Shown: piece by piece, positions 43,873 through 50,389 of the stretch | How the letters are laid out: every line of letters begins with the position of its first letter | Numbering within the stretch: position 1 is the first letter of the stretch | Source: a virus | Taxonomy: Duplodnaviria > Caudoviricetes | DNA length: 64,000 nt | Virus record (IMG/VR): IMGVR_UViG_3300029955_000001 | Direction: 5' to 3' (one strand) | Translations under genes and position numbers: made by a program | The notes under the pieces: generated by a model | Database searches by the model: none | What the model was told of the DNA's origin: nothing | The model's input: only the letters and a program-made list of their open reading frames with translations

Positions 43873-44523
43873 TTACATCATCCCACCAAAGCCTGATGTT
43901 GGGTCTTCTTTTCCAGCATCAATGATGGCTTTTACATTAGCCCATGTTATCAAGATATCAGATTGTTCATCTATATCTAACTCACGATCACCTTCCTTTA
44001 AGTCGTCGATGAACTGTGTATGAGACCACCCAGCTTCACTATCCCCATCTACTGGCAGATCTGTTACAATTCCATCCATTACGCGACGATAGTCGTAATG
44101 CTCGTCACCTGTTGCTTCTGGCTGCACGTCTACATATGTTTCAGAATACCCATCAATACGTTGTTGATGATACAATGTTCTGACAGTAGGCTCAGCCATT
44201 ATCCATCGTTGCATTTGTAGTTGTGCTATTTGAAACTCAGTCACTTCGCATAGTGGTTTAATTACATCCTTTTGGAATAAATTACTTACTTTCTTGTATG
44301 CTACACGTGATAAACGCATTGCCTCACTACCGTTGAACTTTTCAATAAGTTCAGAACTATCTTGTAGAAATGTTCTCCCAGCGTCGGTAAGAGTATTACT
44401 AAAATTATTTAATTGATTTTTAATAAAGTCTACTGTACTAGGATGTTTAGGCGAGTACAATAGAGCATTAAATTCTTGCGCACCGCCTATTAATACTTGC
44501 GCCATTGATTCTCCTTTTTTCAT
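43873..44523 (-). CDS. Conserved hypothetical protein (core block)
   Basis: 216-aa ORF whose ATG overlaps the stop codon of the beta-prime exon 3. Confidence 0.6.
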   Translation of the reverse strand: MKKGESMAQVLIGGAQEFNALLYSPKHPSTVDFIKNQLNNFSNTLTDAGRTFLQDSSELIEKFNGSEAMRLSRVAYKKVSNLFQKDVIKPLCEVTEFQIAQLQMQRWIMAEPTVRTLYHQQRIDGYSETYVDVQPEATGDEHYDYRRVMDGIVTDLPVDGDSEAGWSHTQFIDDLKEGDRELDIDEQSDILITWANVKAIIDAGKEDPTSGFGGMM

Positions 44524-44750
44524 TACTGCACAAAAAGTAATTCTGACATTCGTTGAAACTTAACCGGATCAACAACACTGTCGTCGCTATGAATATACGA
44601 AGCCAATGTGCTGACAACTGGTTTCGGCATCGATAAATTTCGCGATACCATACGTGGGTTATTCAAATCAAAAGTTGATTTATGCGGAGCTAGATTCTTT
44701 AATTGTTCCGTTATACATGTATCGATTGATAATGTTGCGTTTAACTGATC
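44523..44750 (-). CDS. nvRNAP beta-prime N-terminal subunit, exon 3
   Basis: DQLNATLSIDTCITEQLKNLAPHKSTFDL...LLFVQ*; starts right after the intron terminal G at 44751. Confidence 0.85.
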   Translation of the reverse strand, partial: DQLNATLSIDTCITEQLKNLAPHKSTFDLNNPRMVSRNLSMPKPVVSTLASYIHSDDSVVDPVKFQRMSELLFVQ

Positions 44751-45045
44751 CTTTTGTCCATCTAATTCGTTAGATTAGATCGGTATGCTGAATACCTGCT
44801 TTATGTTTCCATAAAGAACTGACTATATCTTCTATTCGTAATGAATAGCCTTCCGTTTCGGAATCACTTGATTCCTACTCGCTTACGCGATAGTCGATGA
44901 ACCTTCTCCTGTACGGAGCTTGGCTGCTGATTGCCCAATCTCTATTCTTTTAAAACCTTGGCTTTGTCTTTCGACTCGCAGTGGTGAATAAAGCTCTCAG
45001 GGGTTTCCAGACAGTTAAAAAGGTTTTTAGACAGCAATTTTGTTT
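44751..45045 (-). ncRNA. Group I intron 2 of the beta-prime gene (295 nt, no ORF)
   Basis: P1 pairing of exon GACGGU with intron GCUGUC gives a U.G pair at the splice site. Q CAATCAGCAG, R GTTCATCGACTA, S GAAGATATAGTC, terminal G. Confidence 0.88.
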
Positions 45046-45065
45046 ACCGTCAAAATCTGCATTAA
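45046..45065 (-). CDS. 20-nt micro-exon encoding (F)NADFDG
   Basis: TT AAT GCA GAT TTT GAC GGT. Splicing yields ...VVGFNADFDGDQLN..., the RNAP catalytic Mg-binding motif. Confidence 0.9.
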
Positions 45066-45492
45066 CTTATTGTCCAATTAGTTCGTTACACTAACCCGGT
45101 ATGTTGTACCTGCTATATATCTCTATATAGAACAGACTATATCTTCATCCTCAGCTTTATCTGTTTGGATGTCCACTGCTTCGGAGCCACTAGCTCCTAC
45201 TCCCATTACAGGATAGTCGTTGAACCTTCATCATTCTTAAATGGTTACCAATTTACATGGTAACGATTAGGCTCTTTCATTTAAGTTAAGATGCTTGGCT
45301 GCTGATTGTCTCTACCAGATTATTTTCAAACATTGACGTATGTGTTTTCACACTCCGCTTTAGTTAATCTGTCTAACAAGAGTTTCCAGCAATTCAATGG
45401 ATTTACATTTATCATTACTGATAAACTGGCCTGTATAAATATTATTTATAGTAATAGTATATTATTTTACTATAGAATTACTTATGTTCCTA
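45066..45492 (-). ncRNA. Group I intron 1 of the beta-prime gene (427 nt, no endonuclease ORF)
   Basis: The exon ends in U (GGC T). P AATTGCTGGAAAC, Q CAATCAGCAG, R GTTCAACGACTA, S GAAGATATAGTC, terminal G at 45066. Confidence 0.86.
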
Positions 45493-46717
45493 AGCCTACT
45501 ACTGACAAAATTGAAAGTGATACAGTGGGGATGTTCGGATCAGTTTTTATTTTCGTAACAAACATTGCTTGTGCTGACCCGCGTTCCAAACTCGGATTTC
45601 TTTGAAATATCACAGGTATGCCCTTGTATGGACATTCATTAATTAACAACTGAAACAGTTCATCTAACAGTGGATGATACTTTTGTGAATGTTCGTTTAG
45701 AAATGCTTTTGCACCATTGGGAGTAAATCCTCTACGCAATAGTTTATTCGTTAAATGAATACCTAATACGGATACTCCAATACCCCACGGGACATGCAAT
45801 TCATCATAATCGTGATTCGCTGTAAGCGATGAAATCACTGCTCTGAAACTAAAATGTGATCTAGTTCCAAATACATGTTTTCTAAATATTCCTTCTTTTT
45901 TAGCTAATGTAAAACGATATAAATCGTCATAAAAATCAGACAGTTGATAAATTGCTTTAATCGTCCTATTTTGTTTTGTTCTAACGGAATGATTTGCCAA
46001 TAAATTATCAATGCTACACATGGTGCGGATCGCGTCCACTGCTCCTGTTACAATTGGATCAACATATGTTCCTACGGTTGTTTCCTCAATAACCAATAGG
46101 GAACGATTAGGCAATGGCAGATAGTCAGAGAACACACAAGATCTTTGCTCTCTCAACAATTGTTCTAAAGGTTCTTCTACGCCTTTCTTTGCTCTGAATC
46201 CTTTTACATTAAATAACGATGCGATAATACTATCAAAGTTATCAACAAAATTATTATAACCTCGTTGGATTCCTAGCTCTTGTACAGTTTCCATAATTGC
46301 CGGAACTTTGACAGCTGGGTGATATGTACTGTCAGCTATCCATCGAATAATGTCGTATCCAGATTTTGAAAACTTTTCGGATAACATTGTTAACACAATT
46401 GGATTGATAAGTTTACTCACTCCTTCTGGCGCTCTAATCCAAACTAACGGCTCAAGATCTTGTTCTAAAGGTGCCTTTACGAATGTTCCGCATTGTTTAC
46501 ACTTCACACCAACGTTATGTTCTCCCTTTATTTCCTGGCATTCGCAAGTAGGCAAATTACTAAGAAGATCGGTATTGTATTTGGTGTAAATCATCGCATT
46601 AAAAGCTTCTTTATCTATTTCAGAACCTTCTGATACGTTGTTAATAATGATTGGTTCTTTAGTGCTATATTTTGAAAACAGTTCATCAAAGTTTACGAGT
46701 TCCAGTGAAATTCCTAT
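45493..46717 (-). CDS. nvRNAP beta-prime N-terminal subunit (gp55-like), exon 1; apparent ATA start
   Basis: Zinc site CEC...CKQC, RKHVFGTRSHFSFRAVI, FQRNPSLERGS. The frame is open upstream of ATG 46594 to AGGAG-N6-ATA GGA ATT TCA CTG GAA. Confidence 0.85.
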
Positions 46718-46809: not shown

Positions 46810-48672
46810 TTACTGCCAGCGGCTGAAACCACGATTTGCACCAGACGGTGTCGCGTTTTGATTATAACCACTGCGGAAGATACCGCTCGATTCAGGGGTC
46901 AACAAAGTATGACCCGAGAACTGTGAGCGAGCACGTTCGTAATTACCAAGATCCTGATACGAGTATACAGGCTTCAGAACCAAACCAGCTTCTTGGCAAC
47001 CCTTAACTAGTGCGTTAATGAAACCGACTTCAAACGTGACGCGGCGAGCGTAGCCTGTGAATACCGCGTTATTGCAAATTGATTGGATGATACGTTTCCG
47101 TTCATACAAGCGTTTCGGCAGAGGGATATGTGTGCTTGCAAAAGAATCAGACCACAACTTAATTGCACCTGGGTCTTGTGCGCCGACACAATTCAACACT
47201 GCCAAATAATCAATATCGCGAATGTCTGCACGTTCACCACGAGAGTTCGTGTAATGACCCAGATGGATACGATTGTATTCATCAGTTGCGACACGGCCCT
47301 TTGGATCAAAATACTTTACAAAGTTACCATTCGTAAGCTCGTTAGCGGCTTTAAGAATAGCGATATTTGCTTGGGTATTCCCAGCGGCAGCTGCCGAGAA
47401 TACTTCATTGAACCAGGTCTGAGCACCGCATTCCGGCACATCCAAGGACACCACAAGACCAGGACGAATTGTTGCCTTAACCAACTGCCCGAGATTTTCT
47501 GGTTTAAACTTATCGGCATGTGTGTCAATGCGTTGACCAACGCCACTTGGATCATTGCTAAAGTTAACTTCGATGCCAATAGCACCGATATCACGGAAGT
47601 CTACGTCGCCAGAAGGAAAATCCCTTGGACGGAAACCTTGAACCCAAGCGTTGTTTTCGCCGAGGCCAACGACTGGAACTAGCGCCAATAATTGCGCTGG
47701 AATAGTAAGCAGTTCGGTTGATTCCATCGTTGTTGCAACAAACCGAGCAGCGTAACGCTGAAAAGATTGTTGTGTTGGATCTGGAATACCGTACAAGTTT
47801 TGTGGCGCAACGATAGGGTCCCAGAAGATATCCAGGAAACCACCAATTCGCGCGATAGGTGCTTCACGTCCAGCATCTTGCTGTTGTGTTTGTTGCGACT
47901 GCACTGGTGCAGCGGTAAAATCCAATACGATATCACTGCGCAATGGCGCACCGACCGCATCTTGTTGTTGTGGCATTGCAAACTGTGTTCGCACTGACAA
48001 AGTGGAATCATTCTTAGCGTTTGCAATATTGATATCTTCAAAGTTCTTGCTATTAATTTCAAGCTCAGAAGTACATGCAAAAATAGCATTTGCAATCAAT
48101 ACGTGCAATGCCGATTTGTCTTCAACGTTAAAGTCCTTAGGAACAACACAAGCACCTGCGTTACGTGGTGTGTCTTGCGGAAACAACCGCTGAACGTAAC
48201 CAAGCACAACACCCTTCAAAGTATCGTTGCAGGAATCACCAGCAGTATAGAGAATCTCAACGGATTGACCGTTAATCATTTCTGGCTTAGGTGTGCGAAT
48301 ATCCGCAGACGCTTCGAGCAACAACGAGTGATACGCAACACCCAACAATGGGTTCTGCTTATCACGAACAGCGAGAATCAAAATAGAAATCGACAAGTTT
48401 GGTGTTTGTTCTTTTTCAATTGGAACCAAATTGATTTCAAAACTCTTATCGGCTTTTTCTGTGATCATCTCAGTCATTGCTTTGGTGATCTTGTTCAATG
48501 CTTCCGATGCCTGTGTGCGACTGAATGCAGGCCGTGACAACTTGCGCAGATTGGTGAAGCTGTACCCAGTGCTATCGGCTTTGGTTTGATGATCACGATT
48601 AGGTGCAAAACTACCAGTAGGGTTGTTTTGAACTTCTGCACCATTGCCAGTACTTTCGTCTTTAATAGCCAT
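46810..48672 (-). CDS. chmA: Chimallin, major phage-nucleus shell protein
   Basis: 620 aa, immediately upstream of the gp55-like RNAP gene and preceded by the early promoter motif, as in phiKZ. Confidence 0.85.
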   Translation of the reverse strand: MAIKDESTGNGAEVQNNPTGSFAPNRDHQTKADSTGYSFTNLRKLSRPAFSRTQASEALNKITKAMTEMITEKADKSFEINLVPIEKEQTPNLSISILILAVRDKQNPLLGVAYHSLLLEASADIRTPKPEMINGQSVEILYTAGDSCNDTLKGVVLGYVQRLFPQDTPRNAGACVVPKDFNVEDKSALHVLIANAIFACTSELEINSKNFEDINIANAKNDSTLSVRTQFAMPQQQDAVGAPLRSDIVLDFTAAPVQSQQTQQQDAGREAPIARIGGFLDIFWDPIVAPQNLYGIPDPTQQSFQRYAARFVATTMESTELLTIPAQLLALVPVVGLGENNAWVQGFRPRDFPSGDVDFRDIGAIGIEVNFSNDPSGVGQRIDTHADKFKPENLGQLVKATIRPGLVVSLDVPECGAQTWFNEVFSAAAAGNTQANIAILKAANELTNGNFVKYFDPKGRVATDEYNRIHLGHYTNSRGERADIRDIDYLAVLNCVGAQDPGAIKLWSDSFASTHIPLPKRLYERKRIIQSICNNAVFTGYARRVTFEVGFINALVKGCQEAGLVLKPVYSYQDLGNYERARSQFSGHTLLTPESSGIFRSGYNQNATPSGANRGFSRWQ

Positions 48673-50118: not shown

Positions 50119-50389
50119 TATTTTCCTCTTTTATATAATGTTTTTCTAACTGTTTAACAACCATCTTGTAAGTTAAACCGCACCATTCATTACCGTCAAA
50201 GAAAACAACATCGCCTGTTTTCCATAAAGTAATACCGTCAAGATTTGTTTTACCATCGTAGCTTATTTTATACCAGTTTCCAATTTCACCAATTCCCGAC
50301 ATGAGATTGGGACAATTTGCAGACGCGTTCCATGTGCCGCAATAAGACGGAACTACACCCGTAGCTTCCATGATGGTGGATACAATCAT
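50111..50389 (-). CDS. Small protein with a tail-fibre-like G-x-W-[ND]-A beta domain (paralog)
   Basis: CGTWNASANCPNL...GNWYKI...WKTGDVVFFDGNEW. Confidence 0.55.
   Translation of the reverse strand: MIVSTIMEATGVVPSYCGTWNASANCPNLMSGIGEIGNWYKISYDGKTNLDGITLWKTGDVVFFDGNEWCGLTYKMVVKQLEKHYIKEENNG

What the first reader, a model, noticed from the sequence alone, without database searches (positions are those of the whole stretch)
44523..46717. RNAP active-site motif isolated on a 20-nt micro-exon between two ORF-less group I introns
No ORF call contains NADFDGD. It is rebuilt only by two splices: GGC T|TT AAT GCA GAT TTT GAC GGT|GAT CAG. Both introns have P/Q/R/S elements, a 5' exon ending in U and a terminal G, and intron 2 has a perfect 6-bp P1 (GACGGU/GCUGUC). 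Established: phiKZ-like nvRNAP genes carry group I introns, usually with a homing endonuclease. Two endonuclease-free introns 20 nt apart around the catalytic Asp residues make all nvRNAP activity depend on double splicing. Micro-exon skipping would yield a dead subunit, which could act as a timing control.
Basis: partly seen in the sequence, partly recalled or inferred. Interest (0 to 1): 0.75.

Follow-up and report, generated by a model that had tools for sequence, protein, structure and literature searches.

The report
Polymerase active site on spliced micro-exon
In an uncultured nucleus-forming giant phage from peat, two self-splicing introns only 20 bases apart cut through the codons of its RNA polymerase's catalytic loop, and environmental RNA shows both being removed exactly as predicted. 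It is a real but crowded example of a known kind of selfish element.

Summary
Rfam finds two full-length group I introns on the minus strand, at 45492-45066 (427 nt) and 45045-44751 (295 nt). Neither carries a sense ORF. They flank a 20-nt exon at 45065-45046.

Joining exon 1, the micro-exon and exon 3 gives an in-frame 490-aa homologue of phiKZ gp55 (nvRNAP beta-prime N part). It reads ...SVVGFNADFDGDQLNATLS, the layout of 57 uninterrupted relatives.

Peat and permafrost metatranscriptome contigs carry exactly this doubly spliced RNA. They also carry a 426-nt circular form of intron 1. A DNA run is colinear with the window.

The design is not unique:
- A relative with 74% amino-acid identity has the same two sites and a 20-nt micro-exon, with a compensatory change in P1.
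- Five other lineages have 9-15 nt micro-exons inside the motif.
- phiKZ itself is split after the N of NADFDGD.
- Intact and interrupted alleles are interleaved on the gene tree.

The best reading is repeated invasion of a homing hot spot by selfish introns that later lost, or never had, an endonuclease gene. Earlier notes of this scan describe the same design on other DNA, in at least 30 genomes. Published precedents include the 23-nt exon of Twort orf142.

The parts
45493..46717 (-). Exon 1 of the nvRNAP beta-prime N-part gene (phiKZ gp55 homologue), 1225 nt. It ends ...GTA GTA GGC T.
   Evidence: It matches phrog_2987 positions 2-412 of 478, E 6.5e-138. It is 34% identical to phiKZ gp55 over the full length, E 7e-87. 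Homologues align from residue 1. The codon at the homologues' start position is ATA (46717-46715), 5 nt after AGGAGA.
45066..45492 (-). Intron 1: a group I intron of 427 nt with no ORF. It has a 4-bp P1 (exon GGCU with intron GGCC) closing a long AT-rich P1 extension, and it ends in G.
   Evidence: RF00028 scores 89.2 bits over the full model. RNA contigs join 45492/45493 to 45064/45065. A 426-nt circular RNA contig joins G45066 to A45491. P1 covaries with the orthologous intron in L113: GGCU/GGCC becomes GGGU/GCCC.
45046..45065 (-). Micro-exon of 20 nt: TT AAT GCA GAT TTT GAC GGT. It codes for (F)NADFDG. Its last 6 nt form the exon strand of intron 2's P1.
   Evidence: The sequence is read. 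It is present between exon 1 and exon 3 in RNA contig X18 record 15, and it is implied by the 19 unplaced letters in X14 record 10. The same 20-nt exon is found in L113.
44751..45045 (-). Intron 2: a group I intron of 295 nt with no ORF. Its P1 is GACGGUAA/UUGCUGUC, with the U-G pair at the splice site, and it ends in G.
   Evidence: RF00028 scores 83.4 bits over the full model. The P1 hairpin folds with z = -2.7. RNA contigs join 45046 to 44750. Its P5 region is 81-91% identical to introns of phiKZ and of N4-like Pseudomonas phages.
44523..44750 (-). Exon 3, 228 nt including the stop codon. It begins GAT CAG TTA AAC (DQLN...).
   Evidence: It matches phrog_2987 positions 422-477 of 478. It continues the motif exactly as in uninterrupted homologues.
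46810..48672 (-). Chimallin (phage nucleus shell protein) gene directly upstream, in the same order as phiKZ gp54-gp55.
   Evidence: PF25677 scores 140 bits and phrog_4795 has E 2.5e-90. The same neighbour is present in L113.

Best explanation
Host and gene. The gene encodes the catalytic (beta-prime N-terminal) subunit of the non-virion RNA polymerase of an uncultured chimallin-encoding jumbo phage from peat.

The insertions. Two related group I introns of the phage IA type have inserted at two separate sites, 20 nt apart, in the DNA coding for the metal-binding loop NADFDGD. Neither carries a homing endonuclease gene.

Splicing. Each intron recognises its own 5' splice site through its own P1 and removes itself. 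The micro-exon is ligated between exons 1 and 3, which restores an ordinary 490-aa subunit. Intron 1 then circularises through its terminal G with loss of its first U, and it persists as RNA. Splicing at these junctions, the circle and the reading frame are shown. Autocatalysis without protein help is inferred from family membership.

Origin. The arrangement is best explained as double occupancy of a homing hot spot by selfish elements. Related phages carry introns at six or more sites in or next to these 21 nt, singly or stacked, some with an HNH gene. The ORF-less copies here are either degenerate descendants or are moved in trans by HNH endonucleases encoded elsewhere in the same phage. The origin and the absence of a dedicated regulatory role are inferred.
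For: Intron identity:
- Both introns match the full Rfam RF00028 model.
- U precedes each 5' splice site and G ends each intron.

Reading frame:
- The spliced frame matches 57 uninterrupted homologues residue for residue across the motif.
- The phrog_2987 profile is covered at 2-412 by exon 1 and at 422-477 by exon 3, leaving just the micro-exon's residues uncovered.

RNA evidence:
- Contig X18 record 15 reads 45636..45492 | 45064..45046 | 44750..44439 with no mismatches.
- X14 record 10, from another study, reads 45707..45492, then 19 letters, then 44750..44656.
- X14 record 11 is a 456-nt contig whose end repeats its start across the joint 45066->45491. This is a 426-nt circle plus the k-1 overlap.
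- DNA run X5 is colinear with the window across all four boundaries.

Conservation:
- L113 (74% aa identity) has both sites, a 20-nt micro-exon, two RF00028 hits and a compensatory P1 change.

Hot spot:
- Micro-exons of 12, 12, 12, 15 and 9 nt occur in L027, L080, L033, L066 and L061.
- phiKZ is split after N.
- About 30 of about 83 non-redundant loci are interrupted in the motif.
- Intact and interrupted alleles are interleaved on the tree.

Possible trans-acting endonucleases and paralogy:
- HNH_3 ORFs lie at window 14110-15120 and inside the paralogous intron 3.
- The three introns of the window are 77-78% identical over 150-280 aligned columns.
Against: - Self-splicing has not been shown in vitro, so a protein cofactor cannot be excluded.
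- P1 of intron 1 is only 4 bp, and its local fold is no better than shuffled sequence (z = -0.19). Its assignment rests on the RNA junction and on one covariation.
- The RNA evidence consists of assembled contigs from metatranscriptomes, not reads from a defined infection. Contigs cannot show rare isoforms or kinetics.
- The double-intron state is conserved between two phages of 74% aa identity. That would also be expected if the arrangement were useful to the phage.
Confidence: 0.85

Rival explanations
1. Regulatory device. The two introns and the micro-exon are kept because variable splicing, such as micro-exon skipping or delayed removal of one intron, yields a truncated, catalytically dead subunit that times or throttles nvRNAP activity.
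For: - Skipping gives a frameshift and an immediate stop.
- Exon skipping between two similar IA2 introns around a 23-nt exon is documented for Twort orf142. Skipping is the major outcome for some engineered tandem introns (PMC10136302) and for a Bastillevirinae gene (PMC11878797).
- The same double arrangement is kept in a relative of 74% aa identity.
- Unspliced RNA across the intron 2/exon 3 boundary is present in one RNA run (X13 record 3).
Against: - Most relatives, including the closest one (P0002, 76% aa identity), have an uninterrupted motif. The device is therefore dispensable.
- Intron sites and numbers vary freely between close relatives.
- The splice-site guides of the two introns differ (GGCC versus GCUGUC), and exon 1's end cannot pair with intron 2's guide (sequence). 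Ueda et al. found that such differences favour exon inclusion.
Confidence: 0.07
2. Immunity by occupancy. The ORF-less introns are retained because they destroy the recognition sites of two different intron endonucleases carried by competing phages. This protects the polymerase gene during co-infection.
For: - Intron endonucleases of chimalliviruses cut intron-less RNAP alleles of competitors and reduce their fitness (PMC11620839).
- Relatives carry HNH-bearing introns at neighbouring sites of this same motif: L061 at NAD| with a 341-aa HNH ORF, and phiKZ at N| with gp56.
- Many sites are occupied across the family.
Against: - No endonuclease specific for either site was identified here.
- Protection is a by-product of any insertion and needs no selection to explain it.
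- Nothing in the sequence tells this reading apart from neutral persistence.
Confidence: 0.25
3. The spliced-looking RNA contigs come from a co-occurring intron-less strain, and this phage's own copy is an unspliced, broken gene.
For: - Intron-less alleles are common in the family.
- Metatranscriptome libraries can hold DNA (warning).
Against: - The spliced contigs match the window's exons with no mismatches over 476 and 311 nt, while the nearest known relatives differ by about 25-30%.
- The DNA run laid beside them shows only the intron-containing form.
- A circular intron 1 RNA joined at the terminal G exists. Only RNA processing can produce it.
Confidence: 0.03

Closest known systems
phiKZ gp55 / gp56 / PHIKZ056.1 (nvRNAP beta-prime N-part gene with a group I intron carrying an HNH endonuclease)
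   Same: - It is the same gene family (34% aa identity over the full length).
- It has the same neighbour, chimallin gp54.
- Its group I intron also lies inside the NADFDGD codons (RF00028 75.6 bits).
- Its intron core shares an 81-91% identical stretch with intron 2.
   Different: - phiKZ has one intron, inserted after N (AAT|GCT), and it contains a 334-aa HNH gene.
- The window has two ORF-less introns at other sites (after GGC T and after GAC GGT) and a 20-nt exon between them.
- Splicing of the phiKZ intron was not detected by ONT-cappable-seq (PMC10914365), whereas splicing is seen here.
Staphylococcus phage Twort orf142 introns 2 and 3 (Landthaler and Shub 1999, as summarised in PMC10136302 and PMC3073962)
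   Same: Two similar phage IA-type group I introns flank a very short exon (23 nt there, 20 nt here) in one protein-coding gene.
   Different: - Twort's gene encodes a structural protein, and its exon is not a catalytic motif.
- Exon skipping was shown there and was not seen here.
- I could not read the original paper.
Bodo saltans virus polr2a intron cluster i1a/i1b/i1c (Deeg et al. 2018, PMC5871332)
   Same: A viral multisubunit RNA polymerase gene is invaded several times by related group I introns. ORF-less 'offspring' copies sit beside an endonuclease-bearing 'parent'. Here the ORF-less introns 1 and 2 are paralogues of the HNH-bearing intron 3 in the DNA polymerase gene.
   Different: - That case is a eukaryotic giant virus.
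- The parent and offspring introns lie in the same gene there, but in different genes here.
PhiPA3 gp210 intron in the virion RNAP gene (Birkholz et al. 2024, PMC11620839)
   Same: It is a group I intron at catalytic residues of a chimallivirus RNA polymerase gene.
   Different: It lies in a different polymerase (virion) and subunit, it is a single intron, and it carries an active HNH endonuclease with a shown role in competition.

Membership tests
Group I intron (Rfam RF00028) | Covariance-model match above the curated gathering score, covering the whole core | tested here: met
   The scores are 89.2 and 83.4 bits against a gathering score of 50. Both matches cover model positions 1-253.
Group I intron (Rfam RF00028) | The 5' exon ends in U, which pairs with G of an internal guide sequence (P1) | tested here: met
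   Intron 2 has an 8-bp P1, GACGGUAA/UUGCUGUC, with z = -2.7. Intron 1 has GGCU/GGCC, which is weak on energy but is supported by a compensatory change to GGGU/GCCC in L113.
Group I intron (Rfam RF00028) | The last intron nucleotide is G (omega-G) | tested here: met
   G lies at 45066 and at 44751. G45066 is the nucleotide joined in the circular RNA.
Group I intron (Rfam RF00028) | Precise excision and exon ligation in RNA | tested here: met
   Metatranscriptome contigs from two studies carry exon 1, the micro-exon and exon 3 joined at the predicted sites. A DNA run does not carry the joined form.
Group I intron (Rfam RF00028) | Autocatalytic splicing with guanosine and Mg2+, without protein | not testable with these tools
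   This needs in vitro transcription and a splicing assay.
Mobile group I intron with homing endonuclease | An endonuclease ORF inside the intron | tested here: not met
   No sense ORF of 40 aa or more lies in 44751-45492. HNH_3 ORFs exist elsewhere in the record, at window 14110-15120 and inside intron 3.
phiKZ gp55-type nvRNAP beta-prime N-terminal subunit | Full-length homology, the NADFDGD metal-binding motif near the C-terminus, and a position next to chimallin | tested here: met
   - phrog_2987 matches with E 6.5e-138.
- BLASTP against gp55 gives E 7e-87.
- The motif is present only after splicing.
- Chimallin lies upstream.
Twort-type tandem introns with exon skipping | Two similar group I introns flank a short exon | tested here: met
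   The exon is 20 nt. The introns are 77% identical over 150 aligned columns.
Twort-type tandem introns with exon skipping | An RNA product lacking the short exon | tested here: inconclusive
   No 45493|44750 joint appears among the contigs of three RNA runs. Contigs drop rare variants, so this does not show absence.

The most novel reading that the evidence does not exclude
The 21 nt coding for NADFDGD in chimallivirus nvRNAP genes are a battleground with at least six distinct intron homing sites. Stacked ORF-less introns would then be kept as immunity against competitors' intron endonucleases. In addition, the abundant circular intron 1 RNA might have a role of its own in the infected cell.
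Probability: 0.2. Interest if true: 0.6.

Novelty: new member of a known kind. Interest (0 to 1): 0.4.

Why it matters
- Gene finders miss the catalytic motif of this essential polymerase subunit. In the protein database about half of the closest relatives are truncated at this spot. Annotation and phylogenies of jumbo-phage RNA polymerases are therefore systematically affected.
- The case gives in-situ RNA evidence that two group I ribozymes can each use a 20-nt exon as substrate, one as its 3' exon and the other as its 5' exon. Relatives suggest this works down to 9 nt.
- It documents, in environmental data, a multi-site intron hot spot at a polymerase active site. That is relevant to the recent idea that intron endonucleases are weapons in phage-phage competition.
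- It does not reveal a new mechanism.

Tried and rejected
- Exon-skipped RNA. No exon1-exon3 joint was present among the contigs of three RNA runs. Contigs cannot show rare forms, so this is not counted as evidence.
- Depth. Intron 1 contigs have far higher k-mer depth than exon contigs (203 vs 6, 36 vs 6, 27 vs 7). Intron 2 is barely assembled in RNA. The tool warns that contig depth is a poor measure, so I treat the accumulation of intron 1 RNA as a hint only.
- X13 record 6. It ends at 45492 with 49 unplaced letters, which would fit 19 + 30 nt of the spliced form.
- Other joints. The joints 45100->44948 and 45233->45286 have short sides or mismatches and also occur in DNA. I take them as related introns of other phages.
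- Energy support for P1 of intron 1. The fold is no better than shuffles.
- Other endonuclease families. PF01844 (HNH) and PF01541 (GIY-YIG) were searched in the 114-kb record and gave no hits.
- Literature. No paper holds 'group I intron' + 'RNA polymerase' + 'NADFDGD'. A search for 'micro-exon' + phage + group I intron found nothing relevant. The Twort paper PMC22036 is not held.
- Automatic classification of loci. The scripts mis-sorted a few loci (L018, L058, L094) because tblastn read through into introns. The counts I give are corrected by hand and approximate.
- Chimeric ribozyme. I considered a single large ribozyme formed from the 5' half of intron 1 and the 3' half of intron 2. By eye, the P3 strands of the two introns in the Rfam alignment do not match well. 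I did not test this formally.
Full report
What is there.

On the minus strand, an ORF of the phiKZ gp55 family runs from 46717 down to 45493 and then hits stops. It encodes the beta-prime N-terminal part of the non-virion RNA polymerase. Its matches are phrog_2987 at E 6.5e-138 and phiKZ gp55 at 34% identity, E 7e-87. The gene directly upstream (46810-48672) is chimallin (PF25677 at 140 bits, phrog_4795), the same order as phiKZ gp54-gp55. The window is part of a 114-kb IMG/VR virus record that is 43% complete by CheckV. Its DNA is found in peat and permafrost metagenomes. The nearest isolate is Burkholderia phage FLC9, at 60% amino-acid identity.

The two introns.

Rfam's group I model matches twice in full (positions 1-253). 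One match is at 45447..45113 with 89.2 bits, the other at 45055..44799 with 83.4 bits. With the flanking P1 and P9-P10 parts, the introns span 45492..45066 (427 nt) and 45045..44751 (295 nt). In both, the 5' exon ends in U and the intron ends in G.

- Intron 2 has an 8-bp P1, GACGGUAA/UUGCUGUC. The splice-site U-G is its sixth pair, and the hairpin folds better than shuffled sequence (z = -2.7).
- Intron 1 has only a 4-bp P1, GGCU/GGCC. This closes a long AT-rich extension and gains no energy support (z = -0.19).
- Neither intron has a sense ORF of 40 aa or more.
- Together with a third intron at window 124-431 (+), they form one paralogous family: 65% mean column identity overall and 77-78% in pairwise local alignments.

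The splice restores the gene.

Joining 46717..45493, 45065..45046 and 44750..44523 gives 1473 nt in frame. The product is 490 aa and reads ...SILSVVGFNADFDGDQLNATLSID.... Of the 120 best database homologues, 57 are uninterrupted and read ...SVVGFNADFDGDQLNGTLS... at the same place. The phrog profile is covered at 2-412 by exon 1 and at 422-477 by exon 3, so only the micro-exon's residues are missing. Omitting the micro-exon shifts the frame and gives a stop directly after ...SVVG.

RNA evidence.

Seven metatranscriptome runs from peat or permafrost hold about half of the region's words. I laid three of them and one DNA run.

- RNA contig X18 record 15 (476 nt) reads 45636..45492, then 45064..45046, then 44750..44439, without a mismatch. 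This is the doubly spliced mRNA.
- X14 record 10, from another study, reads 45707..45492, then 19 letters too short to be listed, then 44750..44656.
- X14 record 11 is a 456-nt contig that runs 45487..45066 and continues at 45491..45458. It is a circle of 426 nt plus the 30-nt overlap expected from k = 31 assembly. G45066 is joined to A45491, so the circle is the intron minus its first U.
- From memory, the T4 td intron circularises in the same way, with loss of the added G and the first U. I did not check this.
- DNA run X5 is colinear with the window across all four exon-intron boundaries.
- Intron 1 contigs have much higher depth than exon contigs in all three RNA runs. The tool warns against reading depth as level, so this is only a hint that the excised intron is stable.

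How common is this?

- A relative with 74% amino-acid identity (L113, the contig of P0028) has the same two insertion sites and a 20-nt micro-exon with three synonymous changes. It has two RF00028 hits of 86.6 and 75.1 bits. The exon 1 end has changed from GGCU to GGGU while the guide has changed from GGCC to GCCC. This compensatory change supports P1 of intron 1.
- Five further lineages carry two or three introns with micro-exons inside the motif: L027 (NA|DFDG|D, 12 nt), L080/L081 (12 nt), L033 (12 nt, three introns), L066 (15 nt, three introns) and L061 (9 nt, first intron with a 341-aa HNH ORF).
- Across the family I saw insertion sites after QRN, after G+1, after N (phiKZ), after NA, after NAD, after DFDG and after DFDGD.
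- Of roughly 83 non-redundant loci that cover the motif, about 54 are uninterrupted and about 30 are interrupted there. These counts were corrected by hand.
- On a quick tree of the N-terminal 400 residues, intact and interrupted alleles, and different sites, are interleaved even within well-supported small clades. The window's nearest relative (P0002, 76% aa identity) is intact.

Interpretation.

The pattern is that of selfish, mobile group I introns repeatedly invading a highly conserved stretch. This is the textbook preference of such elements (review PMC12908238). The ORF-less state is what the homing cycle predicts after fixation. The alternative is movement in trans. The record encodes two I-HmuI-like HNH proteins. 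One lies inside the paralogous intron 3, which splits the DNA polymerase gene exactly between profile positions 494 and 495. The other stands free beside an RNAP beta gene. This resembles the parent and offspring introns of Bodo saltans virus (PMC5871332).

Exon skipping is known around the 23-nt exon of Twort orf142, around a 34-nt Coxiella exon and in a Bastillevirinae gene (PMC10136302; PMC11878797). Nothing here supports it, however. The two guides differ, and exon 1 cannot pair with intron 2's guide, which should favour inclusion.

Novelty.

Group I introns in chimallivirus RNAP genes are known, including the one in phiKZ gp55 inside this same motif. Tandem phage introns around a very short exon are also known (Twort). 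I found no paper that describes micro-exons in NADFDGD of these phages. Earlier notes of this scan report the same design on other DNA, in at least 30 genomes, including Goslar-like and Klebsiella jumbo phages. Other notes report more spliced introns in this same phage. I did not test those notes. I therefore class the finding as a new member of a known kind. It is well documented here by environmental RNA.

Noticed in passing
window 1-481 (+), continuing upstream in L112 (G000:C1:30923-34000): A third group I intron (RF00028 90.1 bits at 124-431) splits the DNA polymerase gene exactly between phrog_3011 profile positions 494 and 495. The break lies beside an ...SASYPNGG... stretch, which I read from memory as polymerase motif A. 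This intron contains a 445-aa I-HmuI-like HNH_3 endonuclease ORF upstream of the ribozyme core. Its core is a paralogue of introns 1 and 2.
   Followed up: partly
window 46715-46717 (-): The codon that aligns with the start Met/Val/Leu of all homologues is ATA, 5 nt after AGGAGA. The 41 residues before the first ATG are conserved. A relative of 72% aa identity (L068) has the same ATA, and RNA and DNA contigs agree with the window. This is a probable AUA start codon.
   Followed up: partly
window 14110-15120 (-) and 15195-16565 (-): A free-standing 336-aa HNH_3/NUMOD endonuclease gene lies directly downstream of a complete RNAP beta-subunit gene (phrog_2962, profile 1-432 of 433). No Rfam intron is nearby. 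It is a candidate trans-acting homing enzyme.
   Followed up: no
window 45066-45492 (-), RNA runs X13, X14, X18: Excised intron 1 is assembled at 4 to 30 times the contig depth of the exons, and as a 426-nt circle in X14. Intron 2 is hardly assembled from RNA. This suggests very different stabilities of the two excised introns.
   Followed up: partly
window 44860-45010 (-) versus phiKZ 50257-50330 and N4-like Pseudomonas phages (PAP02 and others): A 74-128 nt stretch of intron 2 is 83-91% identical to introns of unrelated Pseudomonas phages, although the host genes share no detectable DNA similarity. This is consistent with horizontal spread of this intron family.
   Followed up: no
window 12421-13965 (-): A 514-aa ORF consists almost wholly of T, A, V, P, S and D residues. 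An equally long open frame lies on the opposite strand. This is a low-complexity region of unknown meaning.
   Followed up: no
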